Positions 1 to 41,970 are shown, counted from the stretch's first letter. The stretch: 64,000 nucleotides of DNA from a virus (IMGVR_UViG_3300035180_001680); one strand, 5' to 3'. Made by a program: numbers and translations. Notes: generated by a model from the letters alone, not told the origin.

Positions 1-548
1 GCTTCAGGAAATCTTCCTTTGATGACAGAACGAGCATAATATGAAGCCCACTGTGGATCTCTTGCAATAGCAGGTTCTCCTTCAGTCCATCTTCCTTTGA
101 TGACATCACTAGCATACCAATAAGCCCAACGTGGATCTTTTGCAATAACAGATTCTGCTTCAGGAAATCTTCCTTTGATGACATCACGAGCATAATATGA
201 AGCCCACTCTGGATGTTTTGCAATAACAGATTCTGCTTCAGGAAATCTTCCTTTGATGACTTGTTGAGCATACACATAAGCCCAATCTGCTTTTTTTGCA
301 ATAACAGGTTCTGCTTCAGTAAATCTTCTTTCGATGACTTGTTGAGCATACCTATAAGCCCACCGTGGATCTTTTGCAACAACAGACTCTGCTTCTTTTT
401 TCTGTTGTGCATTTAATTTTCCACTCTTTAATGCTTCAAAAGCCATCTCAGGCGTGGCCATGTGTTTTTTATCATATCCATGCAATTTTTCTGGGTTTGA
501 ATGATATTTGTATAAATCCATTGCTTCGAATAGATCACGCAATTTCAT
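1..548 (-). CDS. 26-aa repeat protein, array member, 3' end outside window
   Basis: ATG at 548 overlaps the TGA of 545..1165; manual translation gives the MKLRDLFEAM leader and repeats, with no stop before base 1. Confidence 0.92.
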   Translation of the reverse strand, partial: MKLRDLFEAMDLYKYHSNPEKLHGYDKKHMATPEMAFEALKSGKLNAQQKKEAESVVAKDPRWAYRYAQQVIERRFTEAEPVIAKKADWAYVYAQQVIKGRFPEAESVIAKHPEWASYYARDVIKGRFPEAESVIAKDPRWAYWYASDVIKGRWTEGEPAIARDPQWASYYARSVIKGRFPE

Positions 549-1165
549 TTCGAAAGTCCTTTAATAAATTCGTTGTATTTTTTAGCCCACTCTGGATTTT
601 TTGCAATAGCAGGTTCTGCTTCAGGCCATCTTCCTTTGATGACATCACGAGCATACCAATAAGCATACTGTGGATCTTTTGCAATAGCAGGTTCTCCTTC
701 AGGCCATCTTCCTTTGATGCTATCATCAGCATACTCATAAGCCCATTCTGGATCTTTTGCAATAGCAGGTTCTGCTTCAGGCCATCTTCCTTTGATGACA
801 TTATGAGCATAATATGTGGCCCACTCTGGATGTTTTGCAATAACAGGTTCTGCTTTAGGCCATCTTCCTTCAATGATATCATCAGCATACCAATAAGCCC
901 ACTGTGGGTTTTTTGCAATAACAGGTTCTGCCTCAGGCCATCTTCCTTGGATGATAGAACGAGCATACCAACAAGCAAACTTTGGATCTGTTGCAACAAC
1001 AGACTCTGCTTCTTTTTTCTGTTGCGCATTCAGTTTTCCACTCTCTAGTGCCTGATATGCCATCTCAGGCGTAGCCATGTGCTTTTTATCATATCCATGT
1101 AACTTCTCTGGATTTGAGTGGTATTTGTATAAATCCATCGCTTCGAATAAGTCACGTAGTTTCAT
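545..1165 (-). CDS. 26-aa repeat protein, 206 aa, 5 repeats
   Basis: ORF track; shared leader, repeats and cap. Confidence 0.93.
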   Translation of the reverse strand: MKLRDLFEAMDLYKYHSNPEKLHGYDKKHMATPEMAYQALESGKLNAQQKKEAESVVATDPKFACWYARSIIQGRWPEAEPVIAKNPQWAYWYADDIIEGRWPKAEPVIAKHPEWATYYAHNVIKGRWPEAEPAIAKDPEWAYEYADDSIKGRWPEGEPAIAKDPQYAYWYARDVIKGRWPEAEPAIAKNPEWAKKYNEFIKGLSK

Positions 1166-1782
1166 TTTGAAAGTCCTTTGATGAATTCGTTGTATTTTTT
1201 AGCCCACTTTGGATCTTTTGCAATAACAGGTTCTCCTTCAGGCCATCTTCCTTTGATGACATAACGAGCATACTCATAAGCCCAACCTGGATCTTTTGCA
1301 ATAACAGGTTCTGCTTCAGTCCATCTTCCTTTGATGACATAACGAGCATACCAATAAGCCCACCTTGGGTCTTTTACAATAGCAGGTTCTGCCTTAGGCC
1401 ATCTTCCTTGGATGATAGAGCGAGCATATTCATAAGCCCAATCTGCTTTTTTTGCAATAACAGGTTCTGCTTCAGGCCATCTTCCTTTGATGACTTGTTG
1501 AGCATACACACAAGCCCAATCTGCTTTTTTTGCAATAACAGGTTCTGCTTCAGGAAATCTTCTTTCGATGACTTGTTGGGCGTACTCATAAGCCCACCGT
1601 GGATCTGTTGCAACAACAGATTCTGCTTCTTTCTTTTGTTGTGCATTTAATTTTCCACTCTTTAGTGCCTCATAAGCCATCTCAGGAGTAGCCATGTGTT
1701 TTTTATCATATCCATGTAACTTCTCTGGATTTGAATGATATTTGTATAAATCCATTGCTTCGAATAGATCACGTAATTTCAT
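1162..1782 (-). CDS. 26-aa repeat protein, 206 aa, 5 repeats
   Basis: ORF track; shared leader, repeats and cap. Confidence 0.93.
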   Translation of the reverse strand: MKLRDLFEAMDLYKYHSNPEKLHGYDKKHMATPEMAYEALKSGKLNAQQKKEAESVVATDPRWAYEYAQQVIERRFPEAEPVIAKKADWACVYAQQVIKGRWPEAEPVIAKKADWAYEYARSIIQGRWPKAEPAIVKDPRWAYWYARYVIKGRWTEAEPVIAKDPGWAYEYARYVIKGRWPEGEPVIAKDPKWAKKYNEFIKGLSK

Positions 1783-2399
1783 TTTGAAAGTCCTTTGATG
1801 TCTTGTTTATACCGTTTAGCATATGTTGGGTCTTTTGCAATAGCAGGTTCTCCTTCAATCCATCTTCCTTTGATGACATCACTAGCATACCAATAAGCCC
1901 AACGTGGATCTTTTGCAATAACAGATTCTGCTTCAGGAAATCTTCCTTTGATGACATCGCGAGCATACAACCAAGCCCATTCTGGATCTTTTACAATAAC
2001 AGATTCTGCTTCAGGAAATCTTCCTTTAATGACATCATGAGCGTACATATAAGCCGTCCGTGGATTTTTTGCAATAACAGATTCTGCTTCAGGAAATCTT
2101 CCTTTGATGAAATCACGAGCATACAAAAAAGCCCATTCTGGATCTTTTGCAATAACAGATTCTGCTTCAGGCCATCTTCCTTTGATGATATCATCAACAT
2201 ACCTATAAGCCCAACGTGGATCTTTTGCGATAACAGACTCTGCTTCTTTTTTCTGTTGTGCATTTAATTTTCCACCTTTTAATGCTCCAAAAGCCATCTC
2301 AGGCGTAGCCATGTGTTTTTTATCAAACCCATGCAATTTTTCTGGGTTTGAATGATATTTGTATAAATTCATCGCTTCGAATAAGTCGCGTAGTTTCAT
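1779..2399 (-). CDS. 26-aa repeat protein, 206 aa, 5 repeats
   Basis: ORF track; shared leader, repeats and cap. Confidence 0.93.
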   Translation of the reverse strand: MKLRDLFEAMNLYKYHSNPEKLHGFDKKHMATPEMAFGALKGGKLNAQQKKEAESVIAKDPRWAYRYVDDIIKGRWPEAESVIAKDPEWAFLYARDFIKGRFPEAESVIAKNPRTAYMYAHDVIKGRFPEAESVIVKDPEWAWLYARDVIKGRFPEAESVIAKDPRWAYWYASDVIKGRWIEGEPAIAKDPTYAKRYKQDIKGLSK

Positions 2400-3094
2400 T
2401 TCGAAAGTCCTTTGATGAATTCGTTGTATTTTTTAGCCCACCTTGGATCTTTTACAATAGCAGGTTCTCCTTTAGGAAATCTTCCGTTGATGACATCATG
2501 AGCATACCAATAAGCCGTCCGTGGATTTTTTGCAACAGCAGGTTCTCCCTTAGGAAATCTTTCCTCGATGACATCACGAGCATACCAATAAGCATACTCT
2601 GGATCTTTTGCAATAACAGGTTCTGCTTCAGGCCATCTTCCTTTGATGACATTACGAACATACTCATAAGCCCATTCTGGATCTTTTGCAATAACAGGTT
2701 CCGCTTTAGGCCACCTTCCCTTAATGACATCATGAGCATACCAATAAGCATACTCTGGATCTTTTGCAATAACAGGTTCCGCTTTAGGCCACCTTCCCTT
2801 AATGACATCATGAGCATACCAATAAGCATACTCTGGATCTTTTGTAATAACAGGTTCCGCTTTAGGAAATCTTCCTTCAATGACATCACGAGCATACCAA
2901 TAAGCCCACTTTATATCTGTTGCAACAACAGATTCTGCTTCTTTTTTCTGTGGTGTATTTAATTTTCCACTCTTTAGTGCCTCATATGCCATCTGTGGAG
3001 TAGCCATGTGCTTTTTATCATATCCATGCAATTTCTCTGGATTCGAGTGATATTTGTATAAATCCATCGCTTCGAATAGATCACGTAGTTTCAT
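2396..3094 (-). CDS. 26-aa repeat protein, 232 aa, 6 repeats
   Basis: ORF track; contains an exact 78-nt tandem duplication near 2700-2855. Confidence 0.93.
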   Translation of the reverse strand: MKLRDLFEAMDLYKYHSNPEKLHGYDKKHMATPQMAYEALKSGKLNTPQKKEAESVVATDIKWAYWYARDVIEGRFPKAEPVITKDPEYAYWYAHDVIKGRWPKAEPVIAKDPEYAYWYAHDVIKGRWPKAEPVIAKDPEWAYEYVRNVIKGRWPEAEPVIAKDPEYAYWYARDVIEERFPKGEPAVAKNPRTAYWYAHDVINGRFPKGEPAIVKDPRWAKKYNEFIKGLSK

Positions 3095-3789
3095 TTTGAA
3101 AGTTCTTTGATGTATTGTTTATAATATTTAGCATACTCTGGATCTTTTGCAATAACAGATTCTCCTTTAGGAAATCTTTCTTTGATGACATCATGAGCGT
3201 ACATATAAGCCGTCCGTGGATTTTTTGCAATAGCAGGTTCTCCTTCAGGCCATCTTCCTTTGATGACATCACGAGCATACCAAAAAGCATAATCTGGATC
3301 TTTTGCAATGACAGATTCTCCTTTAGGAAATCTTTCTTTAATGATATAACGAGCATACTCATAAGCCCAATCTGCTTTTTTTGCAACAGCAGGTTCTCCT
3401 TTAGGAAATCTTTCTTTGATGATATCATGAGCGTACATATAAGCCATCCGTGGATCTTTTGCAATAACAGATTCTGCTTCAGGAAATCTTCCTTTGATGA
3501 AATCACGAGCATACAAAAAAGCCCATTCTGGATCTTTTGCAATAGCAGGTTCTCCTTTAGGAAATCTTTCTTTGATGACATTACTGACATACCAATAAGC
3601 CCACTTTGTATCTGTTGCAACAACAGACTCTGCTTCTTTTTTCTGTTGTGCATTTAGTTTTCCACTCTTTAGTGCCTCATATGCCATCTCAGGCGTAGCC
3701 ATGTGCTTTTTATCATATCCATGCAATTTCTCTGGATTTGAGTGGTATTTGTATAAGTTCATCGCTTCGAATAAGTCACGTAATTTCAT
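3091..3789 (-). CDS. 26-aa repeat protein, 232 aa, 6 repeats
   Basis: ORF track; ends KELSK instead of KGLSK/KGISK. Confidence 0.93.
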   Translation of the reverse strand: MKLRDLFEAMNLYKYHSNPEKLHGYDKKHMATPEMAYEALKSGKLNAQQKKEAESVVATDTKWAYWYVSNVIKERFPKGEPAIAKDPEWAFLYARDFIKGRFPEAESVIAKDPRMAYMYAHDIIKERFPKGEPAVAKKADWAYEYARYIIKERFPKGESVIAKDPDYAFWYARDVIKGRWPEGEPAIAKNPRTAYMYAHDVIKERFPKGESVIAKDPEYAKYYKQYIKELSK

Positions 3790-4484
3790 TTTGAAAGTCC
3801 TTTGATGAATTCTTTGTAATTTTTAGCCAGGTGTGGATCTTTTGCAATGACAGATTCTGCTTCAGGAAATCTTTCCTTGATGACATCACGAGCATACCCA
3901 TAAGCATAATCTGGATCTTTTGCAATAGCAGGTTCTCCTTTGGGAAATCTTTCTTTAATGACATCACGAGCATAACTATAAGCCCACCGTGGATCTTTTG
4001 CAATAACAGGTTCTGCTTCAGGAAATCTTCCTTTGATGACAGAATGAGCATACCAATAAGCATACTCTGGATCTTTTGCAATAACAGGTTCTCCTTTAGG
4101 AAATCTTCCTTTGATGACATCACGAGCATAATATGAAGCCCACCGTGGATCTTTTGCAATAACAGACTCTGCTTCAGGAAAGCTTCCTTTGATGACATCA
4201 CGAGCATAATATGAAGCAAACTTTGGATCTGTTGCAACAACAGGTTCTCCTTCAGGAAATCTTCCTTTGATGACATCACGAGCATAATATGAAGCAAACT
4301 TTGGATCTGTTGCAACAACAGATTCTGCTTCTTTCTTTTGTTGTGCATTCAGTTTTCCACTCTCTAGTGCCTCATAGGCCATCTCAGGAGTAGCCATGTG
4401 TTTTTTATCATATCCATGTAACTTCTCTGGATTCGAGTGGTATTTGTATAAATCCATTGCTTCGAGTAGATCACGCAATTTCAT
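3786..4484 (-). CDS. 26-aa repeat protein, 232 aa, 6 repeats
   Basis: ORF track; LLEAM leader variant. Confidence 0.93.
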   Translation of the reverse strand: MKLRDLLEAMDLYKYHSNPEKLHGYDKKHMATPEMAYEALESGKLNAQQKKEAESVVATDPKFASYYARDVIKGRFPEGEPVVATDPKFASYYARDVIKGSFPEAESVIAKDPRWASYYARDVIKGRFPKGEPVIAKDPEYAYWYAHSVIKGRFPEAEPVIAKDPRWAYSYARDVIKERFPKGEPAIAKDPDYAYGYARDVIKERFPEAESVIAKDPHLAKNYKEFIKGLSK

Positions 4485-5179
4485 TTTGAAATTCCTTTAA
4501 TAAATTCTTTGTATTTTTTGGTCCATTCTGAATCTTTTGCAATAATAGGTTCTGCTTCAGGAAATCTTCCTTTGATGACATAACGAGCATACCAATAAGC
4601 CCAACCTGAATCTTTTGCAATAATAGGTTCTGCTTCAGGAAATCTTCCTTTGATGACATTACGAGCATACCAATAAGCCCACTGTGGGTTTTTTGCAATA
4701 ACCGGTTCTGCTTCAGACCATCTTCCTTTAGTGACATCACGAGCATAATCATAAGCCCATTTTGGATGTTTTGCAATAGCAGGTTCTGCTTCAGGCCATC
4801 TTCCTTTGATGACATCACGAGCGTACGTATAAGCCGACCGTGGATCTTTTGCAATGACAGATTCTCCTTTAGGAAATCTTTCTTTGATGACATTACAAGC
4901 ATACCAATAAGCCCATTCAGGATCTTTTGCAATAACAGGTTCTGCCTTAGGCCATCTTCCTTGGATGACATCACGAGCATAATATGAAGCAAACTCTGGA
5001 TCTGTTACAACAACAGATTCTGCTTCTTTCTTTTGTTGTGCATTTAATTTTCCACTCTTTAGTGCCTCATAAGCCATCTCAGGCGTAGCCATGTGTTTTT
5101 TATCAAACCCATGCAATTTTTCTGGGTTTGAATGATATTTGTATAAATCCATTGCTTCGAGTAGATCACGCAATTTCAT
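4481..5179 (-). CDS. 26-aa repeat protein, 232 aa, 6 repeats
   Basis: ORF track; LLEAM leader variant. Confidence 0.93.
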   Translation of the reverse strand: MKLRDLLEAMDLYKYHSNPEKLHGFDKKHMATPEMAYEALKSGKLNAQQKKEAESVVVTDPEFASYYARDVIQGRWPKAEPVIAKDPEWAYWYACNVIKERFPKGESVIAKDPRSAYTYARDVIKGRWPEAEPAIAKHPKWAYDYARDVTKGRWSEAEPVIAKNPQWAYWYARNVIKGRFPEAEPIIAKDSGWAYWYARYVIKGRFPEAEPIIAKDSEWTKKYKEFIKGISK

Positions 5180-5718
5180 TTTGAAATTCCTTTAATAAAT
5201 TCTTTGTATTTTTTGGTCCATTTTGGATGTTTTGCAATAGCAGGTTCTGCTTCAGGAAATCTTCCTTTGATGACAGAACGAGCATACCAACAAGCCCATT
5301 CTGGATCTTTTGCAATAGCAGGTTCTCCTTTAGGAAATCTTTCTTTGATGACACTACAAGCATACCAATAAGCCCATTCAGGATCTTTTGCAATAGCAGG
5401 TTCTCCTTTAGGAAATCTTCCTTTGATGACATCACGAGCATAACTATAAGCCCACTGTGGATCTGTTGCAATAACAGGTTCTGCCTTAGGCCATCTTCTT
5501 TGGATGACAGAACGAGCATACCAATAAGCAAACTCTGGATCTGTTACAATAACAGATTCTGCTTCTTTCTTTTGTTGTGCATTCAGTTTTCCGCTCTCTA
5601 GTGCCTGATATGCCATCTGTGGAGTAGCCATGTGCTTTTTATCAAACCCATGCAATTTCTCTGGATTCGAGTGATATTTGTATAAATCCATTGCTTCGAG
5701 TAAGTCACGTAATTTCAT
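5176..5718 (-). CDS. 26-aa repeat protein, 180 aa, 4 repeats (shortest)
   Basis: ORF track; LLEAM leader variant. Confidence 0.93.
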   Translation of the reverse strand: MKLRDLLEAMDLYKYHSNPEKLHGFDKKHMATPQMAYQALESGKLNAQQKKEAESVIVTDPEFAYWYARSVIQRRWPKAEPVIATDPQWAYSYARDVIKGRFPKGEPAIAKDPEWAYWYACSVIKERFPKGEPAIAKDPEWACWYARSVIKGRFPEAEPAIAKHPKWTKKYKEFIKGISK

Positions 5719-6335
5719 TTCGAAAGTCCTTTGATGAATTCGTTGTAATTTTTAGCCAGGTGTGGATCTTTTGCAATAGCAGATTCTGCTTCAGGAAATC
5801 TTCCTTTAATGACATAACGAGCATACGTATAAGCCCACTGTGGATCTTTTGCAATGACAGATTCTCCTTTAGGAAATCTTTCTTTGATGACTTGTTGAGC
5901 ATACACATAAGCCCAATCTGCTTTTTTTGCAATAGCAGGTTCTCCTTTAGGAAACCTTCCTTCGATAACATTACGAGCATACAAACAAGCCCACTCTGGA
6001 TCTTTTGCAATGACAGATTCTCCTTTAGGAAATCTTTCTCCAATGACATCTATAGCATACTCATAAGCCAACTCTGGATCTTTTGCAATAATAGGTTCTC
6101 CTTTAGGAAACCTTCCTTTGATGACATTACGAGCATACTCATAAGCAAACTTTGGATCTGTTGCAACAACAGATTCTGCTTCTTTTTTCTGTGGTACATT
6201 TAATTTTCCACTCTTTAGTGCCTCATAGGCCATCTCAGGAGTAGCCATGTGCTTTTTATCATATCCATGTAACTTCTCTGGATTTGAATGATATTTGTAT
6301 AAATCCATCGCTTCGAATAGATCACGTAATTTCAT
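5715..6335 (-). CDS. 26-aa repeat protein, 206 aa, 5 repeats
   Basis: ORF track; shared leader, repeats and cap. Confidence 0.93.
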   Translation of the reverse strand: MKLRDLFEAMDLYKYHSNPEKLHGYDKKHMATPEMAYEALKSGKLNVPQKKEAESVVATDPKFAYEYARNVIKGRFPKGEPIIAKDPELAYEYAIDVIGERFPKGESVIAKDPEWACLYARNVIEGRFPKGEPAIAKKADWAYVYAQQVIKERFPKGESVIAKDPQWAYTYARYVIKGRFPEAESAIAKDPHLAKNYNEFIKGLSK

Positions 6336-6952
6336 TTTGAAAGTCCTTTGATGAATTCGTTGTATGGCTTAGCCCACTGTGGATCTTTTGCAATAACAGG
6401 TTCTGCTTCAGGCCATCTTCCTTTGATGACATGACGAGCATACCAATAAGCCCAACCTGGATCTTTTGCAATAACAGGTTCTGCTTCAGGCCATCTTCCC
6501 CTGATGACATCACGAGCATACGGACAAGCCCGCGTTGGATCTGTTGCAATAGCAGGTTCTCCTTTAGGAAATCTTCCTTTGATGATATCATCAGCATAAT
6601 TATAAGCCCAACGTGGATCTTTTGCAATAACAGGTTCTGCTTCAGGAAATCTTTCTTTGATGACATCACGAGCATACAAAAAAGCCCATTCTGGATCTTT
6701 TGCAATAGCAGGTTCTCCTTTAGGAAATCTTTCTTTGATGACATTACAAGCATACCAATAAGCCCACTGTGGGTTTTTTGCAACAACAGACTCTGCTTCT
6801 TTTTTCTGTTGTGCGTTTAATTTTCCATCTTTTAATGCTCCACAAGCCATCTCAGGCGTAGCTATGTGCTTTTTATCATATCCAGGTAACGTCTCTGGAT
6901 TCGAGTGATATTTGTATAAATCCATCGCTTCGAATAGATCACGTAATTTCAT
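6332..6952 (-). CDS. 26-aa repeat protein, 206 aa, 5 repeats
   Basis: ORF track; PETLPGYDKKHI leader variant. Confidence 0.93.
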   Translation of the reverse strand: MKLRDLFEAMDLYKYHSNPETLPGYDKKHIATPEMACGALKDGKLNAQQKKEAESVVAKNPQWAYWYACNVIKERFPKGEPAIAKDPEWAFLYARDVIKERFPEAEPVIAKDPRWAYNYADDIIKGRFPKGEPAIATDPTRACPYARDVIRGRWPEAEPVIAKDPGWAYWYARHVIKGRWPEAEPVIAKDPQWAKPYNEFIKGLSK

Positions 6953-7645
6953 TTTGAAAGTCCTTTGATGAATTCGTTGTATTTTTTAGCCCATCTTAGA
7001 TCTTTTACAATAGCAGGTTCTCCTTCAGGCCATCTTCCTTCGATGAAATCACGAGCATACCAATAAGCATACTGTGGGTTTTTTGCAATAGCCGGTTCTC
7101 CTTCAGGCCATTTTCCTTTGATGATATCATCAACATATATAAGCCCAATTTGCTTTTTTTGCAATAACAGATTCTGCTTCAGGAAATCTTCCTTTGATGA
7201 CATTATAAGCATACTCATAAGCCCACCGTGGATCTTTTGCAATAGCAGGTTCTCCTTCAGGCCATCTTCCTTTAATGAAATCGCGAGCATAATTATAAGC
7301 CCAATGTGGATCTTTTGCAATAACAGGTTCTACTTCAGGCCATCTTCCTTTGATGACATAACGAGCATACCAATAAGCCCATTCTGGATCTTTTGCAATA
7401 ACAGATTCTGCTTTAGGCCATCTTCCTTTAATGACATAATGAGCATACTCATAAGCCCATTCTGGATCTTTTGCAACAACAGATTCTGCTTCTTTTTTCT
7501 GTTGTGCATTCAGTTTTCCACTCTTTAGTGCCTCATATGCCATCTGTGGAGTAGCCATGTGTTTTTTATCATATCCATGTAACTTCTCTGGATTCGAGTG
7601 GTATTTGTATAAATCCATTGCTTCGAATAGATCACGTAGTTTCAT
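6949..7645 (-). pseudogene. Frameshifted array member (6 repeats; 2-nt deletion near 7135-7141)
   Basis: Unit is 697 nt versus 699 nt for intact 6-repeat genes; 7130..7645 stops at ...WAYIC*, and the other frame continues YVDDIIKGKWP...KGLSK to 6949. Confidence 0.85.
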
Positions 7646-8262
7646 TTCGAAAGTCCTTTGATGTCTTGTTTATACCGTTTAGCATATGTTGGATCTTTTG
7701 CAATAACAGGTTCTGCTTCAGGAAATCTTCCTTTGATGACATCACGAGCATACCCATAAGCAAACTCTGGATCTTTTGCAATAACAGGTTCTGCTTTAGG
7801 CCATCTTCCTTTGATGACATCATGAGTATACCAATAAGCCGACTTTGGATATTTTGCAATAACAGATTCTGCTTCAGAAAATCTTCCTTTGATGACATCA
7901 CGAGCATAATATGAAGCCCAACCTGGATCTTTTGCAATAACAGGTTCTGCTTCAGGCCATCTTCCTTTGATGACATCACGAGCATACAAACAAGCCCACT
8001 GTGGATTTTTTGCAATAGCAGGTTCTCCTTTAGGAAATCTTCTTTCGGTGACATCACGAGCATAATAATGAGCCAACTCTGGAACTTTTGCAATAACAGA
8101 CTCTGCTTCTTTTTTCTGTTGTGCGTTTAATTTTCCACTCTTTAGTGCCTCATAGGCCATCTCAGGAGAAACCATGTGCCTTTTATCATATCCATGTAAC
8201 TTCTCTGGATTTGAGTGGTATTTGTATAAATTCATTGCTTCGAATAAGTCACGTAGTTTCAT
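7642..8262 (-). CDS. 26-aa repeat protein, 206 aa, 5 repeats
   Basis: ORF track; shared leader, repeats and cap. Confidence 0.93.
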   Translation of the reverse strand: MKLRDLFEAMNLYKYHSNPEKLHGYDKRHMVSPEMAYEALKSGKLNAQQKKEAESVIAKVPELAHYYARDVTERRFPKGEPAIAKNPQWACLYARDVIKGRWPEAEPVIAKDPGWASYYARDVIKGRFSEAESVIAKYPKSAYWYTHDVIKGRWPKAEPVIAKDPEFAYGYARDVIKGRFPEAEPVIAKDPTYAKRYKQDIKGLSK

Positions 8263-8879
8263 TTCGAAAGTCCTTTAATAAATTCGTTGTAATTTTTAGT
8301 CGACTGTAGGTTTTTTGCAATAGCAGGTTCTCCTTCAGGCCATCTTCCTTTGATGACATGACGAGCATAATATGAAGCCCACCGTGGAGCTTTTGCAATA
8401 GCAGGTTCTCCTTCAGGCCATCTTCCTTTGATGACATCACGAGCATACCCATAAGCATACTCTGGGTGTTTTGCAATGACAGATTCTCCTTTAGGAAATC
8501 TTTCTTCGATGACATAACGAGCATAATATGAAGCCCATTGTGGATCTTTTGCAATAGCAGGTTCTCCTTCAGGCCATCTTCCTTTAATGACACCATGAGC
8601 ATACCAATAAGCATACTCTGGGTGTTTTGCAATGATAGATTCTCCTTTAGGAAATCTTTCTTTGATGACTCGTTGAGCATACTCATAAGCCCACTGTGGA
8701 TCTGTTGCAACAACAGACTCTGCTTCTTTTTTCTGTTGTGCATTCAGTTTTCCACTCTCTAGTGCCTCATAAGCCATCTCAGGAGTAGCCATGTGCTTTT
8801 TATCAAACCCATGCAATTTTTCTGGGTTTGAATGATATTTGTATAAATCCATTGCTTCGAATAAGTCACGTAATTTCAT
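8259..8879 (-). CDS. 26-aa repeat protein, 206 aa, 5 repeats
   Basis: ORF track; shared leader, repeats and cap. Confidence 0.93.
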   Translation of the reverse strand: MKLRDLFEAMDLYKYHSNPEKLHGFDKKHMATPEMAYEALESGKLNAQQKKEAESVVATDPQWAYEYAQRVIKERFPKGESIIAKHPEYAYWYAHGVIKGRWPEGEPAIAKDPQWASYYARYVIEERFPKGESVIAKHPEYAYGYARDVIKGRWPEGEPAIAKAPRWASYYARHVIKGRWPEGEPAIAKNLQSTKNYNEFIKGLSK

Positions 8880-9730
8880 TTTGAAATTCCTTTAATAAAT
8901 TCGTTGTATTTTTTAGCCCACTTTGGATGTTTTGCAATAACAGATTCTGCTTCAGGAAATCTTCCCCTGATGACATTATGAGCATACCAATAAGCCCAAC
9001 GTGGATCTTTTGCAATAACAGGTTCTGCTTCAGGCCATCTTCCTTTAATGAAATCACGAGCATACGTATAAGCCCAATCTGCTTTTTTTGCAATAGCAGG
9101 TTCTGCTTCAGGCCATCTTCCTTTGATGACATCACGAGCATACAAAAAAGCCCGTTCTGGATCTTTTGCAATAGCAGGTTCTCCTTTAGGAAATCTTTCT
9201 TTGATGACAAAATGAGCGTAATATGAAGCCCACTGTGGATCTGTTGCAATAGCAGGTTCTCCTTTAGGCCATCTTCCTTTAATGACATCACGAGCATAAC
9301 TATAAGCATACCCTGGAACTTTTGCAATAGCAGGTTCTGCTTCAGGCCATCTTTCTTTGATGACATCACGAGCGTACCAATAAGCCGACTCTGGAACTTT
9401 TGCAAAGACAGATTCTCCTTCAGGCCATCTTCCTTTGATGACATCACGAGCATACCAATAAGCCAACTCTAGATCTTTTGCAATAACAGGTTCTCCTTTA
9501 GGAAACCTTCCTTTGATGAAATCACGAGCGTACTCATAAGCCCATCTTGGATCTTTTGCAACAACAGATTCTGCTTCTTTTTTCTGTTGTGCATTTAATT
9601 TTCCACCTTTTAATGCTTCAAAAGCCATCTCAGGAGTAGCCATGTGTTTTTTATCAAACCCATGCAATTTCTCTGGATTCGAGTGATATTTGTATAAATC
9701 CATTGCTTCGAATAAGTCACGTAGTTTCAT
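8876..9730 (-). CDS. 26-aa repeat protein, 284 aa, 8 repeats
   Basis: ORF track; shared leader, repeats and cap. Confidence 0.93.
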   Translation of the reverse strand: MKLRDLFEAMDLYKYHSNPEKLHGFDKKHMATPEMAFEALKGGKLNAQQKKEAESVVAKDPRWAYEYARDFIKGRFPKGEPVIAKDLELAYWYARDVIKGRWPEGESVFAKVPESAYWYARDVIKERWPEAEPAIAKVPGYAYSYARDVIKGRWPKGEPAIATDPQWASYYAHFVIKERFPKGEPAIAKDPERAFLYARDVIKGRWPEAEPAIAKKADWAYTYARDFIKGRWPEAEPVIAKDPRWAYWYAHNVIRGRFPEAESVIAKHPKWAKKYNEFIKGISK

Positions 9731-10815
9731 TTCGAAAGTCCTTTGATGAATTCGTTGTATTTTTTAGTCCATCTTGGATCTTTTGCAATAACAGATTCTG
9801 CTTCAGGCCATCTTCCTTTAATGACATGACGAGCATACCAATAAGCATACTCTGGATGTTTTACAATAGCAGGTTCTCCTTCAGACCATCTTCCTTTGAT
9901 GACATAACGAGCATACTCATAAGCCCACCGTGGGTTTTTTGCAATAACAGGTTCTCCTTCAGGCCATCTTCCTTTGATGACATAATGAGCATACACACAA
10001 GCCCACTGTGGATCTTTTGCAATAACAGGTTCTCCTTTAGGAAACCTTCCTTTGATGACATTGAGAGCATACTCATAAGCCAACTCTGGATCTTTTGCAA
10101 TAACAGGTTCTCCTTTAGGAAACCTTCCTTTGATGACATTGAGAGCATACGCATAAGCCCAATATGCTTTTTTTGCAATAGCAGGTTCTCCTTCAGGCCA
10201 TCTTCCTTTAATGAAATCACGAGCATACATATAAGCCCAACCTGGATCTTTTGCAATAACATGTTCTACTTCAGGCCATCTTCCTTTGATGACATAACGA
10301 GCATACTCACAAGCCCAATGTGGATCTTTTGCAATAGCAGGTTCTCCTTTAGGAAACCTTCCTTTAATGAAATCATGAGCATACGTATAAGCCCAATCTG
10401 CTTTTTTTGCAATAGCGGGTTCTCCTTCAGGCCATCTTCCTTTGATGAAATTACGAGCATACGCATAAGCCCACTTTGGATCTTTTGCAATAACAGGTTC
10501 TCCTTTAGTAAACCTTCCTTTGATGACATCTGTAGCATACTCATAAGCCAACTCTGGAACTTTTGCAATGACAGATTCTGCTTTAGGCCATCTTCCTTTG
10601 ATGACATTACGAGCATACCTATAAGCCCACGTTGTATCTGTTGCAACAACAGATTCTGCTTCTTTCTTTTGTTGTGCATTTAATTTTCCACTCTTTAGTG
10701 CCTCATAGGCCATCTCAGGAGTAGCCATGTGTTTTTTATCAAACCCATGCAATTTTTCTGGATTCGAGTGGTATTTGTATAAATCCATTGCTTCGAATAA
10801 GTCACGTAGTTTCAT
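9727..10815 (-). CDS. 26-aa repeat protein, 362 aa, 11 repeats (longest)
   Basis: ORF track; shared leader, repeats and cap. Confidence 0.93.
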   Translation of the reverse strand: MKLRDLFEAMDLYKYHSNPEKLHGFDKKHMATPEMAYEALKSGKLNAQQKKEAESVVATDTTWAYRYARNVIKGRWPKAESVIAKVPELAYEYATDVIKGRFTKGEPVIAKDPKWAYAYARNFIKGRWPEGEPAIAKKADWAYTYAHDFIKGRFPKGEPAIAKDPHWACEYARYVIKGRWPEVEHVIAKDPGWAYMYARDFIKGRWPEGEPAIAKKAYWAYAYALNVIKGRFPKGEPVIAKDPELAYEYALNVIKGRFPKGEPVIAKDPQWACVYAHYVIKGRWPEGEPVIAKNPRWAYEYARYVIKGRWSEGEPAIVKHPEYAYWYARHVIKGRWPEAESVIAKDPRWTKKYNEFIKGLSK

Positions 10816-11585
10816 TTCGAAAGTCCTTTGATGAATTCGTTGTATTTTTTAGCCCACTGTGGATCTTTTGCAATAGCAGGTTCTCCTTCAGGCCATCTTC
10901 CTTTGATGACATCACGAACATACAAAAAAGCCAACTCTGGATTTTTTGCAATAACAGGTTCTGCTTCATGCCATCTTCCTTTGATGACATAACGAGCATA
11001 CGCATAAGCATACTCTGGAACTTTTGCAATAGCAGGTTCTCCTTTAGGAAACCTTCCTTTGATAACATTATGAGCATACAAATAAGCCAACTCTGGATCT
11101 TTTGCAAAGACATATTCTCCTTTAGGAAATCTTTCTTTAATGACATCTTCAGCATACTCATAAGCCCACTGTGGATTTTTTGCAATAGCAGGTTCTCCTT
11201 CAGGCCATCTTCCTTTGATGACACCACGAGCATACCAATAAGCATACTTTGGATCTTTTGCAATAGCAGGTTCTCCTTCAGGCCATCTTCCTTTGATGAC
11301 ATAATGATACTCATAAGCCCACTTTGGATCTTTTGCAATAACAGGTTCTGCTTCAGGCCATCTTCCTTTGATGACATTACAAGCATACTCATAAGCCCAC
11401 CGTGGATCTGTTGCAACAACAGATTCTGCTTCTTTCTTTTGTTGTGCATTCAGTTTTCCACTCTCTAGTGCCCCATAGGCCATCTCAGGCGTAGCCATGT
11501 GTTTTTTATCATATCCATGCAATTTTTCTGGATTTGAGTGGTATTTGTATAAATCCATTGCTTCAAATAAGTCACGTAATTTCAT
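10812..11585 (-). CDS. 26-aa repeat protein, 257 aa, 7 repeats (one lacks a codon)
   Basis: ORF track; AYEY-HYVIKG lacks the conserved Ala (3-nt deletion at about 11306/11307). Confidence 0.92.
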   Translation of the reverse strand: MKLRDLFEAMDLYKYHSNPEKLHGYDKKHMATPEMAYGALESGKLNAQQKKEAESVVATDPRWAYEYACNVIKGRWPEAEPVIAKDPKWAYEYHYVIKGRWPEGEPAIAKDPKYAYWYARGVIKGRWPEGEPAIAKNPQWAYEYAEDVIKERFPKGEYVFAKDPELAYLYAHNVIKGRFPKGEPAIAKVPEYAYAYARYVIKGRWHEAEPVIAKNPELAFLYVRDVIKGRWPEGEPAIAKDPQWAKKYNEFIKGLSK

Positions 11586-12358
11586 TTTGAAATTCCTTTG
11601 ATGAATTGGTTATACTGTTTAGCATATGTTGGGTCTTTTGCAATAACAGGTTCTGCTTCAGGAAATCTTCCTTTGATGACATCACGAGCATACTCATAAG
11701 CCCACCGTGGATCTTTTGCAATAGCAGGTTCTCCTTCAGGCCATCTTCCTTTAATGACAGAACGAGCATAGTATAAAGCCCAATCTGCTTTTTTTGCAAT
11801 AACAGGTTCTCCTTCAGACCATCTTCCTTTGATGACATCACGAGCATAACCATAAGCCCAATCTGGATCTTTTGCAATAGCAGGTTCTCCTTTAGGCCAT
11901 CTTCCTTTGATGATATTACGAGCATACTCATAAGCCCACTGTGGACCTGTTGCAATAGCAGGTTCTCCTTTAGGCCATCTTCCTTTGATGACATCACGAG
12001 CATACCAATAAGCCAACCGTGGATCTTTTGCAATAACAGGTTCTGCTTCAGGCCATCTTCCTTTGATGGCATCGCGAGCATACCAATAAGCCAACTCTGG
12101 ATCTTTTGCAATAACAGGTTCTGCTTCAGGCCATCTTCTTTTGATGACAGAACGAGCATACCAATGAGCATACTCTGGATCTGTTACAATAACAGATTCT
12201 GCTTCTTTCTTTTGTTGTGCGTTTAATTTTCTACTCTTTAGTGCTTTAAAAGCCATCTCAGGCGTAGCCATGTGCTTTTTATCAAACCCATGCAATTTTT
12301 CTGGGTTTGAATGATATTTGTATAAATCCATCGCTTCGAATAAGTCACGTAGTTTCAT
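11582..12358 (-). CDS. 26-aa repeat protein, 258 aa, 7 repeats
   Basis: ORF track; shared leader, repeats and cap. Confidence 0.93.
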   Translation of the reverse strand: MKLRDLFEAMDLYKYHSNPEKLHGFDKKHMATPEMAFKALKSRKLNAQQKKEAESVIVTDPEYAHWYARSVIKRRWPEAEPVIAKDPELAYWYARDAIKGRWPEAEPVIAKDPRLAYWYARDVIKGRWPKGEPAIATGPQWAYEYARNIIKGRWPKGEPAIAKDPDWAYGYARDVIKGRWSEGEPVIAKKADWALYYARSVIKGRWPEGEPAIAKDPRWAYEYARDVIKGRFPEAEPVIAKDPTYAKQYNQFIKGISK

Positions 12359-13209
12359 TTTGAAATTCCTTTGATGTATTGTTTATAATATTTAGCATAC
12401 TCTGGATGTTTTGCAATAACAGGTTCTCCTTCAGGAAATCTTCCTTTGATGACATCACGAGCATACCAATAAGCATACTCTGGATGTTTTGCAATAACAG
12501 GTTCTCCTTCAGGAAATCTTCCTTTGATGACATCACGAGCATACCAATATGCTGACCCTGACTCTTTTGCAATAGCAGGTTCTCCTTCAGTCCATCTTCC
12601 TTTAATTACAGAACGAGCATAATGTAAAGCCCACCGTGGATCTTTTGCAATAGCAGGTTCTGCTCCAGGCCATCTTCCTTTGATGACATAACAAGCATAC
12701 TCATAAGCCCACTCTAGATCTTTTACAATAGCAGGTTCTCCTTCAGGCCATCTTCCTTCGACGACATCGTGAGCGTACATATAAGCCATCCGTGGATCTT
12801 TTGCAATAACAGGTTCTGCTTTAGGCCATCTTCCCTTGATGACATCACGAGCATAAATATAAGCCCACTTTGGATCTTTTGCAATAACAGGTTCTGTTTT
12901 AGGCCATCTTCCTTTGATGACATAACGAGCATACCTATAAGCCCACTCTGGAACTTTTGCAAAGACAGATTCTCCTTCAGGCCATCTTCCTTTGATGACA
13001 TCACGAGCATAAATGTAAACCAACTCTGGATCTGTTGCAACAACAGATTCTGCTTCTTTTCTCTGTTGTGCGTTTAATTTTCCACCTTTTAATGCTTCAA
13101 AAGCCATCTCAGGAGTAGCCATGTGTTTTTTATCAAACCCATGCAATTTTTTTGGATTCGAGTGATATTTGTATAAATCCATTGCTTCGAATAAGTCGCG
13201 TAGTTTCAT
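12355..13209 (-). CDS. 26-aa repeat protein, 284 aa, 8 repeats
   Basis: ORF track; shared leader, repeats and cap. Confidence 0.93.
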   Translation of the reverse strand: MKLRDLFEAMDLYKYHSNPKKLHGFDKKHMATPEMAFEALKGGKLNAQQRKEAESVVATDPELVYIYARDVIKGRWPEGESVFAKVPEWAYRYARYVIKGRWPKTEPVIAKDPKWAYIYARDVIKGRWPKAEPVIAKDPRMAYMYAHDVVEGRWPEGEPAIVKDLEWAYEYACYVIKGRWPGAEPAIAKDPRWALHYARSVIKGRWTEGEPAIAKESGSAYWYARDVIKGRFPEGEPVIAKHPEYAYWYARDVIKGRFPEGEPVIAKHPEYAKYYKQYIKGISK

Positions 13210-13904
13210 TTCGAAAGTCCTTTGATGAATTCGTTGTATTTGTTAGCCCATTCTGGATCTTTTGCAATAGCAGGTTCTCCTTCAGGCCATCTTCCTTTAA
13301 TGACATGACGAGCATACACATAAGCCCACTTTGGATCTTTTGCAATAGCAGGTTCTGCTTCAGGAAATCTTTCTTTAATGACATAATAAGCATAATATGA
13401 AGCCGACTGTAGATCTTTTACAATAGCAGGTTCTCCTTCAGGCCATCTTCCTTTAATGACATGACGAGCATACAACCAAGCCCATTCTGGATCTTTTGCA
13501 ATAACAGGTTCTGCTTTAGTCCATCTTCCTTTAATGACATGATGAGCATACCAACAAGCCCACTCTGGATCTTTTGCAATAACAGGTTCTGCTTTAGGCC
13601 ATCTTCCTTTGATGACATAACGAGCATAACTATAAGCCCACTCTGAATCTTCTGCAATAACAGGTTCTACTTTAGGCCATCTTCCTTTGATGACATAACG
13701 AGCATACCTATAAGCCCATCGTGGATCTGTTGCAATAACAGACTCCGCTTCTTTTTTCTGTTGTGCGTTTAGTTTTCCACTCTTTAGTGCCTCATAGGCC
13801 ATCTCAAGAGTAATTATGTGCTTTTTATCATATCCAGGTAACGTCTCTGGATTCGAGTGATATTTGTATAAGTCCATTGCTTCAAATAAGTCACGTAATT
13901 TCAT
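13206..13904 (-). CDS. 26-aa repeat protein, 232 aa, 6 repeats
   Basis: ORF track; PETLPGYDKKHI leader variant. Confidence 0.93.
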   Translation of the reverse strand: MKLRDLFEAMDLYKYHSNPETLPGYDKKHIITLEMAYEALKSGKLNAQQKKEAESVIATDPRWAYRYARYVIKGRWPKVEPVIAEDSEWAYSYARYVIKGRWPKAEPVIAKDPEWACWYAHHVIKGRWTKAEPVIAKDPEWAWLYARHVIKGRWPEGEPAIVKDLQSASYYAYYVIKERFPEAEPAIAKDPKWAYVYARHVIKGRWPEGEPAIAKDPEWANKYNEFIKGLSK

Positions 13905-14521
13905 TTTGAAAGTCCTTTAATAAATTCGTTGTATTTGTTAGCCCACTGTGGATCTTTTGCAATAGCAGGTTCTCCTTTAGGAAACCTTCCTTTGATGACA
14001 TGACGAGCATACGCATAAGCCCAATATGCTTTTTTTGCAATAGCAGGTTCTGCTTCAGGCCATCTTCCTTTAATGACATAACGAGCATACCCACAAGCAT
14101 ACTCTGGATCTTTTGCAATAGCAGGTTCTCCTTTAGGAAACCTTCCTTTGATGACATTGAGAGCATACGCATAAGCCCAATATGCTTTTTTTGCAATAGC
14201 AGGTTCTGCTTCAGGCCATCTTCCTTTGATGACATCACGAGCATACGCATGAACCCACAGTAGATCTTTTGCAATAACAGGTTCCGCTTTAGGCCATCTT
14301 CCCTTAATGACATAATGAGCATACCAATAAGCCCACTGTGGATCTGTTGCAACAACAGACTCTGCTTCTTTTTTCTGTTGTGCGTTTAATTTTCCACCTT
14401 TTAATGCTCTAAAAGCCATCTCAGGCGTAGCTATGTGTTTTTTATCATATCCATGTAACTTCTCTGGGTTTGAATGATATTTGTATAAATCCATTGCTTC
14501 GAATAAGTCGCGCAATTTCAT
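13901..14521 (-). CDS. 26-aa repeat protein, 206 aa, 5 repeats (first gene of array)
   Basis: ORF track; starts 6 nt after the stop of 14528..16108. Confidence 0.93.
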   Translation of the reverse strand: MKLRDLFEAMDLYKYHSNPEKLHGYDKKHIATPEMAFRALKGGKLNAQQKKEAESVVATDPQWAYWYAHYVIKGRWPKAEPVIAKDLLWVHAYARDVIKGRWPEAEPAIAKKAYWAYAYALNVIKGRFPKGEPAIAKDPEYACGYARYVIKGRWPEAEPAIAKKAYWAYAYARHVIKGRFPKGEPAIAKDPQWANKYNEFIKGLSK

Positions 14522-27026: not shown

Positions 27027-27028
27027 AA

Positions 27029-29157: not shown

Positions 29158-29211
29158 TCAGGTAACTATTTGAAATATTAACGTAAATATTCTCAACTTT
29201 TGGGGTATTTT

Positions 29212-41822: not shown

Positions 41823-41931
41823 ATTTGCTGTAGGCAACTCACCTCATCATTATGGTGTTAAGTTATCTTCAAAAATCTGGCTTTTTTTTAATATTTAAAC
41901 CCCGTTACATTCAACACTGTTTCCTCAAATG

Positions 41932-41939
41932 TATAAATA
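41932..41939 (+). promoter_or_regulatory. Late promoter TATAAATA
   Basis: Exact motif upstream of ATG 41971. Confidence 0.65.
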
Positions 41940-41970
41940 TATTATAATATCCCTCAAAGAGGAGGTTAGT

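What the first reader, a model, noticed from the sequence alone, without database searches (positions are those of the whole stretch)
1779..14300. Repeat modules are shuffled between non-adjacent paralogs (recombinational mosaicism, no DGR signature)
Seen: distinctive modules recur in distant genes. AKDPEWAFLYARDFIKGRFPEAESVI is in the 1779 and 3091 genes; AKKAYWAYAYALNVIKGRFPKGEP in 9727 and 13901; ESVFAKVPE in 8876 and 12355; leader PETLPGYDKKHI in 6332 and 13206; cap TYAKRYKQDIKGLSK in 1779 and 7642; cap EYAKYYKQYIK in 3091 and 12355. Local duplications also occur: an exact 78-nt tandem duplicate near 2700-2855 and the LLEAM leader in three adjacent genes (3786-5718). Inference: unequal crossover and gene conversion between 78-nt units generate new combinations, conceptually like lamprey VLR cassette assembly. 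The phage's gp46/gp47 and RuvC-like enzymes could contribute.
Basis: partly seen in the sequence, partly recalled or inferred. Interest (0 to 1): 0.78.

Follow-up and report, generated by a model that had tools for sequence, protein, structure and literature searches.

The report
Recombination-scrambled binder gene array in phage
An uncultured giant T4-like phage carries at least 21 back-to-back genes for helical-repeat proteins, and recombination has cut and re-pasted their DNA so thoroughly that each gene is a patchwork of pieces shared with distant copies and with a related phage.

Summary
Window 1-14521 (minus strand) holds at least 21 translationally coupled paralogs. Each has a 58-aa leader, 4-11 repeats of 26 aa (78 nt) and an 18-aa cap.

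- Shared tracts are far more frequent than in column-shuffled arrays: 31 of 60 nt or more, against 1-6.
- Synonymous sites in the leader show all four allele combinations in 38% of pairs within 9 nt, rising to about 90% beyond 30 nt.
- The three thirds of the leader give conflicting trees. Mean deltaLnL is 133, against 49 (maximum 76) in 70 no-recombination simulations.
- A related phage contig (flank 95% identical) has 12 genes instead of at least 21, and only one clear ortholog. Its variants are fully intermixed with the window's.

Exchange tracts are short (about 90 nt) and ignore unit and gene borders. Nothing suggests a programmed, VLR-like or DGR-like process. Diversity concentrates on one face of the first helix of each repeat, where piN exceeds piS. 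The leader is under strong purifying selection.

The proteins' function is unknown; a binder repertoire is the likeliest reading. Other windows of this scan had already noted the same array.

The parts
13901..14521 (-). g01, first array gene (leader + 5 units + cap)
   Evidence: units 2-3 share an 86-nt exact tract with g06 units 6-7
13206..13904 (-). g02 (6 units); leader variant PETLPGYDKKHI
   Evidence: 57-nt exact tract with the g11 leader
12355..13209 (-). g03 (8 units); cap EYAKYYKQYIK
11582..12358 (-). g04 (7 units)
10812..11585 (-). g05 (7 units; unit 2 lacks one codon near 11306)
9727..10815 (-). g06, longest gene (11 units)
8876..9730 (-). g07 (8 units); ESVFAKVPE junction shared with g03
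8259..8879 (-). g08 (5 units)
7642..8262 (-). g09 (5 units); cap TYAKRYKQDIKGLSK shared with g18
6949..7645 (-). g10 (6 units), broken by a 2-nt loss in a TA run near 7138; otherwise intact
   Evidence: a run X1 contig covering 7014-7184 shows the same letters
6332..6952 (-). g11 (5 units)
5715..6335 (-). g12 (5 units)
5176..5718 (-). g13 (4 units); the only clear ortholog of a gene in the related array (L001 gene 197-739, 94.5% over 543 nt)
4481..5179 (-). g14 (6 units)
3786..4484 (-). g15 (6 units; units 1-2 form a local duplication that includes the leader-unit junction)
3091..3789 (-). g16 (6 units)
2396..3094 (-). g17 (6 units) with an exact 78-nt tandem duplication (2676-2766 = 2754-2844)
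1779..2399 (-). g18 (5 units)
1162..1782 (-). g19 (5 units)
545..1165 (-). g20 (5 units)
3..548 (-). g21, cut by the window start (leader + 4 units + part of a fifth)
   Evidence: 100-nt exact tract 86-185 = 1859-1958 with g18
14528..16108 (-). 526-aa ORF heading the same operon, 6 nt upstream of g01; conserved flank used to anchor the comparison with L001
16133..16140 (-). T4-type late-promoter-like TATAAATA about 25 nt upstream of the 526-aa ORF; none lies inside the array
25974..28807 (+). gp47/gp46-like (SbcD/SbcC) recombination nuclease genes
29200..29700 (+). RuvC-like junction resolvase gene
   Evidence: PF02075, 30 bits, cut-off 22.2

Best explanation
The array is a multigene family in a late operon of a XacN1-related jumbo myovirus. 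Each gene encodes an alpha-solenoid protein: a constant leader, n two-helix repeats and a cap.

The genes evolve by pervasive in-register ectopic homologous recombination.
- Unequal crossing-over changes the number of 78-nt units per gene and the number of genes per array.
- Repeated short-tract gene conversion, or double crossovers, moves pieces of about 50-120 nt between any two copies, near or far.

Over time this has brought variable sites close to linkage equilibrium. Every gene is therefore a unique mosaic drawn from a pool of site variants, and related phages share that pool.

Purifying selection holds the leader and the structural core of the repeat. Diversity is kept, or favoured, at five or so positions on one face of the first helix. 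The outcome is a repertoire of differently surfaced binders.

Shown: the mosaic structure, its statistical excess, the incongruence along the gene, copy-number change between relatives, and the selection contrast.

Inferred: the enzymology (the phage's own recombination machinery), whether exchange is mainly within one genome or between co-infecting genomes, and the function. The likeliest function is binding of host or competitor proteins, perhaps after packaging into the capsid.
For: Anatomy:
- 21 genes with ATGA overlaps, and an AAAGGA Shine-Dalgarno-like motif inside each cap 8 nt before the next ATG.
- The AlphaFold model has pLDDT 88 and shows a helix-turn-helix solenoid.

Recombination:
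- In the leader, 63% of informative site pairs are incompatible. PHI is 0.36 against 0.66 +/- 0.04 in permutations (0 of 2000 reach it). r2 falls from 0.39 at 1-5 nt to about 0.06 beyond 30 nt.
- Among 29 synonymous leader sites, the four-gamete fraction is 0.375 at 9 nt or less, 0.70 at 10-30 nt, and 0.83-0.90 beyond.
- The thirds of the leader reject each other's maximum-likelihood trees. Mean deltaLnL is 133, against 49 (maximum 76) in 70 simulations without recombination.
- Mantel correlations between the leader halves, units and cap are about 0, and there is no correlation with gene distance.
- Long exact tracts are in excess.
- In a copying-model painting, each gene needs 4-10 donors and the median tract is 86-95 nt. 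Observed cost is 591 against 687-800 for shuffled donors. Donor distances are close to random.

Comparative:
- L001/L002 share both flanks with the window's phage: 95% over 260 nt upstream, and a downstream junction seen in run X1.
- L001 has 12 genes with 3-6 units. Only one whole-gene ortholog exists, and it is 1st in L001 but 13th here.
- Identity between arrays equals identity within arrays: 0.827 against 0.82-0.84 for units, 0.892 against 0.890-0.895 for leaders.
- 32 of 45 leader polymorphisms are shared, and there are no fixed differences.
- Nearest-neighbour units do not cluster by phage (p = 0.25), and 9% fall in the same gene against 2.7% expected.
- Both arrays end in a truncated leader remnant, the scar of tandem duplication.

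Selection:
- Leader piS is 0.40 and piN 0.04. Units have piS 0.13 and piN 0.19.
- The most variable positions are 4, 5, 8, 11 and 12 of the repeat, spaced as one face of helix A.
- 159 distinct helix-A haplotypes occur among 177 units.

Machinery: gp46/47-like and RuvC-like genes are present.
Against: - No recombination event was observed directly. Everything rests on two assembled arrays plus fragments.
- The long-range order of the window's array cannot be verified from the public contigs, which are 171 nt or shorter inside the array.
- With sites near linkage equilibrium and only 78 nt per unit, most individual donor assignments are uncertain.
- The low synonymous diversity of units (0.13, against 0.40 in leaders) is unexplained. 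It inflates piN/piS.
- The 95% flank identity may itself result from recombination, so it is a weak clock for how fast the arrays were reshuffled.
- The function is unsupported by any family match.
Confidence: 0.82

Rival explanations
1. Exchange happens mainly between genomes. Related phages co-infect one cell and recombine their misaligned arrays, so the array behaves as one population-wide gene pool. Intragenomic gene conversion would then be minor.
For: - Variants are fully intermixed between the window and L001, with no fixed differences.
- At least three strain types co-occur in related sediment and mat samples.
- Contigs in runs X2-X4 join parts of different window genes in register, for example 5280 to 6593. 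The flanking matches are only 22-37 nt.
Against: - This is not exclusive of the best explanation. Both are ectopic homologous recombination.
- Exact tandem duplications inside single genes need no second genome.
- The joints are short-sided and weak by the tool's own warning.
Confidence: 0.35
2. No recombination. The family arose by whole-gene and unit duplication followed by divergence. Shared motifs reflect convergent substitutions among a few allowed states.
For: - Most variable sites have only two common states, and many unit pairs at 90-94% identity are expected by chance.
- Selection clearly acts on the protein.
Against: - Four-gamete violations at synonymous sites rise with distance.
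- The PHI and linkage-decay results point the same way.
- Tree conflict exceeds a simulated no-recombination null.
- Long exact tracts are in excess.
- Only one ortholog exists between arrays whose flanks are 95% identical.
Confidence: 0.03
3. Assembly artefact. The metagenome assembler threaded wrongly through near-identical repeats and created chimeric genes.
For: - This is a repetitive 14.5-kb region from a metagenome.
- Strain variants are present in the same kind of samples.
- The long-range order is not independently confirmed.
Against: - The longest exact repeat is 100 nt. That is shorter than the largest k-mers of common assemblers (my knowledge of the usual pipelines, not tested).
- Linkage decays within 30 nt, far below any k-mer, so the fine mosaic cannot come from mis-joins.
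- The related array was assembled identically (1 mismatch in 5203 nt) from two samples.
- Run X1 contigs match the window at 99% or more in 420 of 452 pieces and cover all bins.
Confidence: 0.05
4. Programmed diversification. A dedicated mechanism (VLR-like copy choice, cassette switching into an expression site, or a DGR) rewrites the genes during each infection or lineage.
For: The protein architecture (caps plus variable-surface modules) resembles VLRs and designed repeat libraries. The scrambling is extreme.
Against: - Every copy is a complete ORF with its own start, ribosome-binding motif and stop, in one operon. There are no silent cassettes.
- Arrays are stable between samples: 99.98% identity over 5.2 kb.
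- Substitutions are not adenine-specific.
- No reverse transcriptase was found among the larger ORFs examined.
Confidence: 0.03

Closest known systems
Clustered plant NLR / LRR resistance genes (e.g. the RPP8 family) and parasite var / VSG families evolving by intergenic exchange
   Same: - Tandem or clustered paralogs with variable copy number.
- Short-tract exchange between non-allelic copies that makes mosaics.
- Polymorphisms shared across lineages.
- Diversity concentrated on the binding surface of a repeat scaffold.

The RPP8 preprint 10.1101/694240 appeared in the search. The rest is from my own knowledge.
   Different: - This array is in a virus of bacteria.
- All copies sit in one translationally coupled operon and are presumably made together.
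- There is no expression-site switching and no silent archive.
- The scaffold is a 26-aa helical hairpin with no named family.
T4 internal proteins IPI-III and the variable internal-protein loci of T-even phages
   Same: A conserved short N-terminal targeting sequence is joined to highly diverse bodies that counter host defences (review PMC3012670). Here a constant leader starts MKLRDLFE-A. A late-type promoter lies upstream, and the phage has a T4-type head protease and late sigma factor.
   Different: - T4 has a few unrelated small proteins, not 21 or more paralogs built from repeats.
- Cleavage and packaging are untested here.
- Recombination between repeat modules is not a feature of the T4 loci.
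Lamprey variable lymphocyte receptors
   Same: Capped repeat proteins whose diversity comes from combining sequence-similar modules with variable surface residues.
   Different: VLRs are assembled somatically from silent cassettes into an incomplete gene by a deaminase-linked copy-choice process. Here all genes are complete, and the arrays are stable between samples. The shuffling is evolutionary, not developmental.
Designed helical-repeat binder libraries (alphaRep, DARPin-type design)
   Same: An N-terminal part, n near-identical two-helix repeats and a C-cap. Variation is restricted to a handful of positions on one helix face. The best structural match is a designed helical repeat protein (Z 7.7).
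   Different: This is a natural family of phages: the Atlas clusters are 80-100% viral. It has no sequence relationship to HEAT, ARM, ANK or TPR models. The structural Z scores are in the range expected for any helical repeat.
Gene 'accordions' and repeat-protein expansions in large DNA viruses (poxvirus K3L amplification, ankyrin families of giant viruses)
   Same: Recombination-driven tandem expansion and contraction of a host-interaction gene in a large virus. Copy number differs between close relatives: 3, 12 and at least 21 in L010, L001 and the window.
   Different: Accordion copies are near-identical and transient. Here the copies are old (leader piS 0.40), diversified and recombined into mosaics.

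Membership tests
Multigene family evolving by ectopic recombination / gene conversion | Tandem paralogs whose copy number differs between close relatives | tested here: met
   At least 21 genes with 4-11 units here, against 12 genes with 3-6 units in L001, between conserved flanks.
Multigene family evolving by ectopic recombination / gene conversion | Four-gamete violations and linkage decay with distance, including at synonymous sites | tested here: met
   PHI: 0 of 2000 permutations reach the observed value. r2 falls from 0.39 to 0.06 within 30 nt. The synonymous-only four-gamete fraction rises from 0.375 to 0.90.
Multigene family evolving by ectopic recombination / gene conversion | Conflicting phylogenies along the gene beyond what a single tree gives | tested here: met
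   Mean deltaLnL is 133, against a simulated 49 (maximum 76, 70 replicates). Mantel r is about 0 between gene parts.
Multigene family evolving by ectopic recombination / gene conversion | Identical tracts between non-adjacent copies, longer and more frequent than chance | tested here: met
   31 tracts of 60 nt or more and 7 of 80 nt or more, against 1-6 and 0-0.45 in shuffles. Donor distances are near random.
Multigene family evolving by ectopic recombination / gene conversion | Recombination events observed directly in a lineage | not testable with these tools
   This needs a cultured phage or long-read population data.
Diversity-generating retroelement | Template/variable repeat pair differing only at template adenines | tested here: not met
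   44 common dimorphic unit sites involve all bases (24 transitions, 20 transversions). Variation extends to leaders and synonymous sites.
Diversity-generating retroelement | Reverse transcriptase gene nearby | tested here: inconclusive
   None was found among the ORFs of 150 aa or more scanned with PHROGs or Pfam. Not every ORF of the window was scanned, and the rest of the genome is not held.
VLR-type programmed cassette assembly | Incomplete expressed gene flanked by silent donor cassettes | tested here: not met
   All copies have an ATG, a ribosome-binding motif, leader, cap and stop. One (g10) carries a simple 2-nt frameshift.
VLR-type programmed cassette assembly | Array differs from cell to cell or generation to generation | tested here: not met
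   L001 and L002, from two samples, differ at 1 of 5203 nt. Run X1 contigs match the window exactly.
T4-type internal (capsid-packaged) proteins | Short N-terminal targeting sequence ending in a L/I-x-E protease site | tested here: inconclusive
   All 21 leaders begin MKLRDL[FL]E-A, and a T4-type head protease gene is present. The rule for the motif is recalled from the literature, and cleavage is untested.
T4-type internal (capsid-packaged) proteins | Late expression | tested here: inconclusive
   TATAAATA lies 25 nt upstream of the operon's first ORF, and the same motif precedes structural genes. A gp55-like sigma factor is present. There are no RNA data.
T4-type internal (capsid-packaged) proteins | Presence inside the virion | not testable with these tools
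   This needs virion proteomics.
Named helical-repeat families (HEAT, ARM, ANK, TPR, Sel1) | Significant match to the family's sequence model | tested here: not met
   Pfam gives no repeat-family hit. NCBIfam gives none. A profile search of PDB sequences gives none.
Named helical-repeat families (HEAT, ARM, ANK, TPR, Sel1) | Specific structural match | tested here: inconclusive
   Foldseek against the PDB gives no hit at E of 0.001 or better. The best VIA-align Z is 7.7, to a designed repeat protein, and Z is 4-6 for HEAT, Sel1 and TPR. That is within the generic range for helical repeats.

The most novel reading that the evidence does not exclude
The array is a phage-borne combinatorial library of binder proteins, made late, packaged through the constant leader and injected. 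Its diversity is generated and maintained by unusually frequent recombination among 78-nt modules, and it is pooled across co-circulating phages. This would be a population-level counterpart of an immune repertoire, aimed at variable host defences.
Probability: 0.2. Interest if true: 0.85.

Novelty: new variant of a known kind. Interest (0 to 1): 0.62.

Why it matters
Mosaic multigene families shaped by ectopic recombination and surface-directed diversification are classic in eukaryotic parasites and in plant and animal immunity. I found no description of one on this scale in a bacteriophage, either in the paper library or among named protein families.

If the proteins are binders of host factors, the array would show that a phage can carry a broad, recombining repertoire rather than single dedicated inhibitors. 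It would also offer a natural library of small, stable helical-repeat binders.

The data give a rare look at how fast recombination remodels repeats in T4-like phages. Two phages with 95%-identical flanks share only one recognisable ortholog out of 12 and at least 21 genes.

Tried and rejected
- Known phages: megablast of the array and of 19.5 kb of neighbouring DNA against INPHARED found nothing. tblastn of an array protein also found nothing, probably because of low-complexity masking.
- The search for related loci: it rejected all pattern matches at its tblastn step (2 in the viral collection, 71 in the metagenome collection). The flank protein also found nothing in metagenomes.
- IMG/VR: a degenerate leader DNA pattern found nothing.
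- Whole genome: none is held.
- The 211-kb JGI contig: it carries a 99%-identical flank protein but could not be fetched. Only an 1860-nt Logan contig was returned.
- Pfam HTH_35: it passes its whole-protein cut-off (37.9 bits) only by summing weak partial hits over 11 repeats. No single stretch passes, so I rejected it as a repeat artefact. The model is a solenoid, not a winged helix.
- Foldseek and VIA-align: only generic helical-repeat matches.
- No RNA holder was listed for the stretch.
- Public contigs inside the array are 171 nt or shorter, so they cannot confirm gene order. The three joints have short sides and are only weak hints.
- AU-test p-values (1e-5 to 1e-78) are overconfident for trees inferred from 58 nt. 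A no-recombination simulation already gives a mean deltaLnL of 49. I therefore rely on the calibrated comparison, not on the p-values.
- Whole-gene orthology or sister pairs within the window were considered and rejected. The best collinear matches are only 88-92% identical, even with free choice of units.
- Concerted evolution in the strict sense (homogenisation within a genome) is rejected, because identity within arrays is no higher than between arrays.

Full report
**What is there.**
Window 1-14521, minus strand, is one uninterrupted array of at least 21 paralogous genes.
- I number them g01 (13901-14521) to g21 (3-548, cut by the window start).
- Each gene has a 58-aa leader (MKLRDLFEAMDLYKYHSNPEKLHGYDKKHMATPEMAYEALKSGKLNAQQKKEAESVVA with few changes), then 4-11 copies of a 26-aa (78-nt) repeat, then an 18-aa cap ending in IKGLSK.
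- Neighbours overlap by ATGA. The cap's K-G codons form an AAAGGA ribosome-binding motif 8 nt before the next ATG.
- Tandem Repeats Finder sees the 78/156-nt period across 1-14368.
- g10 carries a 2-nt loss in a TA run near 7138, and the same letters stand in a public contig. One unit of g05 lacks a codon.

**Operon and phage.**
- The array follows a 526-aa ORF (14528-16108), 6 nt upstream of g01. That ORF is preceded by TATAAATA, the motif that also precedes structural genes in the window.
- The phage has T4-type portal, head protease, major head protein, late sigma factor, sheath, DNA polymerase and gp46/47 homologs, plus a RuvC-like gene.
- Its portal is 45-50% identical to those of the jumbo phages XacN1, CM1, Xoo-sp13 and RsoM2USA.
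- No close relative exists in the phage record collection.

**The protein.**
- An AlphaFold model (pLDDT 88) is a helix-turn-helix solenoid. Repeat positions 3-14 form helix A and positions 19-25 form helix B.
- No named family matches, and structural matches are generic.
- The nearest Atlas clusters are unnamed and 80-100% viral. More than 870 metagenomic proteins share the repeat.
- Elsewhere they occur as single genes in phage-like contigs.

**Checking the observation.**
- At DNA level they lie in exact tracts of 57-100 nt. The coordinates are in the observation check.
- The 125 units are on average 82% identical (sd 4.7%) and the leaders 89%.
- Because the variable sites have few states, I asked what random assortment would give. 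I shuffled columns among units, leaders and caps in blocks of 1, 3 or 9 nt.
 - Exact matches of 45/60/80 nt or more: 25-80 / 1.2-6 / 0-0.45 in shuffles, against 179 / 31 / 7 observed.
 - Unit pairs at 95% identity or more: 0.2-1.05 in shuffles, against 8 observed.
- The long shared modules are therefore real. The many 90-94% 'nearest neighbours' are not individually meaningful.

**Recombination or homoplasy.**
- The leader alignment shows blocks of linked, mostly two-state differences that re-assort among genes.
- 63% of informative site pairs are incompatible with a single tree. The PHI statistic is 0.36 against 0.66 +/- 0.04 in site permutations (0 of 2000 reach it). r2 falls from 0.39 at 1-5 nt to about 0.06 beyond 30 nt.
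- I restricted the test to 29 synonymous sites, where convergence by selection on the protein is not an option. Pairs showing all four combinations rise from 0.375 (9 nt or less) to 0.70 (10-30 nt) and 0.83-0.90 (beyond).
- Maximum-likelihood trees of the three 58-nt thirds of the leader (33 leaders from two arrays) reject each other.
 - Such short data inflate these tests, so I simulated 70 alignments on the single best tree.
 - The simulated mean deltaLnL is 49 (maximum 76), against 133 observed.
- Distance matrices of the leader halves, first, second and last units and cap are uncorrelated with each other and with gene spacing (Mantel r -0.23 to 0.21).
- Units show the same signal more weakly: PHI 0 of 1000, r2 0.13 falling to 0.01.

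**Shape of the exchange.**
- Exact tracts begin and end at any phase. They cross unit borders, and they cross gene borders from a cap into the next leader, for example 4441-4527 = 5136-5222.
- I ran a copying-model painting with a switch cost of 4 mismatches.
 - Each window gene is explained by 5-10 donor segments from other genes (2 for the truncated g21). The median tract is 95 nt and identity is 93-96%.
 - Donor genes lie at distances close to random expectation, with a slight excess at close range.
- Nearest-neighbour units fall in the same gene 9.3% of the time, against 2.7% expected. So local duplication exists, but about 90% of closest relatives are in other genes.
- Examples of local duplication are the exact 78-nt repeat in g17 and the duplication in g15 that includes the leader-unit junction.
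- The pieces are thus not 78-nt cassettes. The pattern is ordinary homologous exchange in register among very similar repeats.

**A related array.**
- Contigs L001 and L002, from two JGI samples, differ at 1 of 5203 nt.
- They carry the end of the same 526-aa ORF (95.0% identical over 260 nt) with the same 6-nt spacer. Then come 12 array genes with 3-6 units, a truncated leader remnant and a 113-aa gene.
- A contig in run X1 otherwise matches the window exactly. It joins a leader start to that same downstream sequence, so the window's phage shares both flanks.
- Between these flanks the arrays differ completely.
 - Only L001's first gene has a whole-gene ortholog: g13, 94.5% over 543 nt, 13th in the window. 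There is partial orthology between L001's last gene and g15.
 - Every other L001 gene is painted from 4-7 window donors.
- Identity between arrays equals identity within arrays, for units and for leaders.
- 32 of 45 leader polymorphisms are shared with the same two alleles, and there are no fixed differences.
- Units do not cluster by phage (p = 0.25).
- So the site variants are older than the split, or are exchanged between phages, while their combinations were reshuffled since. This is shuffling of a shared pool, not homogenisation within a genome.
- A more distant T4-like contig (L010) has three such genes beside its head module. A homolog of the C-terminal half of the 526-aa ORF sits between them. 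Copy number in the lineage thus runs 3, 12 and at least 21.

**Selection.**
- Leaders: piS 0.40, piN 0.04. Units: piS 0.13, piN 0.19. Caps are intermediate.
- Amino-acid entropy and piN peak at repeat positions 4, 5, 8, 11 and 12 (and 2, 7). This spacing is that of one face of helix A.
- A6, Y9, A10, I14, R17, E22, I25 and A26 are nearly invariant.
- Associations between positions are short-range only. 159 of 177 units have a unique helix-A half.
- This is the pattern of a scaffold with a diversified binding face.
- The low synonymous diversity of units relative to leaders is unexplained. More frequent conversion among about 125 templates is one possibility.

**What it is not.**
- Not a DGR. 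Substitutions involve all bases (24 transitions, 20 transversions among common dimorphic sites). They occur in leaders and at synonymous sites. No reverse transcriptase was seen among the scanned ORFs.
- No sign of programmed assembly. All copies are complete and coupled in one operon, and arrays are stable across samples.
- Not plausibly an assembly artefact. The longest exact repeat is 100 nt, linkage decays below any k-mer length, and the related array assembled identically twice. Long-range order in the window remains unconfirmed.

**Mechanism and function.**
- The best-supported account is pervasive in-register ectopic homologous recombination: unequal crossing-over plus short-tract conversion. 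T4-like phages are known to perform this at high frequency (established knowledge). The gp46/47-like and RuvC-like genes are present for it, but their involvement is inferred.
- Whether exchange is mainly within a genome or between co-infecting genomes cannot be told.
- For function I commit, at modest confidence, to a repertoire of binders of host or competitor proteins.
- The constant leader begins MKLRDLFE-A. Together with the late-type promoter and the T4-type head protease, it recalls the capsid targeting sequence of T4 internal proteins (PMC3012670). This agrees with earlier notes of this scan but is untested.

**Verdict.**
- The VLR analogy holds only for protein architecture.
- This is a new variant of a known kind of system, unusual for a phage. 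Other windows of this scan had already flagged the same array.

Noticed in passing
window 14528-16108 (-); L010 8690-9448: The C-terminal half of the 526-aa ORF that heads the operon has a homolog sitting between the repeat genes in the distant contig L010. PHROG 28193 (681 positions) is hit by both this ORF (profile 37-212) and the repeat proteins (profile 228-290). This suggests the two are fused in other phages and work together.
   Followed up: partly
L001 7137-7175; L010 10001-10624 (3' end): Both related arrays end in a decayed fragment of a further leader: about 38 nt in L001, and a fused remnant in the last L010 gene. A run X1 contig shows the same terminal junction for the window's phage. 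This is a scar of tandem duplication.
   Followed up: yes
window 8255 (runs X1 and X3): Contigs match a cap plus the first 7 nt of a leader, then continue for 255 nt into sequence found neither in the window nor in L001. This could be another junction of the family elsewhere in the genome or in a co-occurring strain.
   Followed up: partly
window 16372 (runs X1-X3): Contigs from three runs agree with the window up to 16372 and then continue into unlike sequence. This suggests a structural variant just upstream of the operon's promoter region.
   Followed up: no
window 17066-20860 (-): The DNA polymerase ORF has 1264 aa. PHROG polymerase matches cover residues 9-573 and 991-1250, leaving about 400 residues unmatched in between. 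This may be an intein or another insertion.
   Followed up: no
window 41929-43593 (+): A 554-aa HNH/homing-endonuclease-like ORF sits directly after the major head protein gene (40426-41775).
   Followed up: no
window, whole: TATAAATA occurs 12 times against 5.7 expected. Most copies lie just upstream of structural genes (39424, 44008, 49685, 51614, 52307), consistent with T4-type late promoters.
   Followed up: partly
tool behaviour: the search for related loci rejected all 71 metagenome stretches matching MKLRDLFE or AM[DN]LYKYH at its tblastn step, probably because the repeats are masked. Blanks from that tool are unreliable for this family.
   Followed up: no
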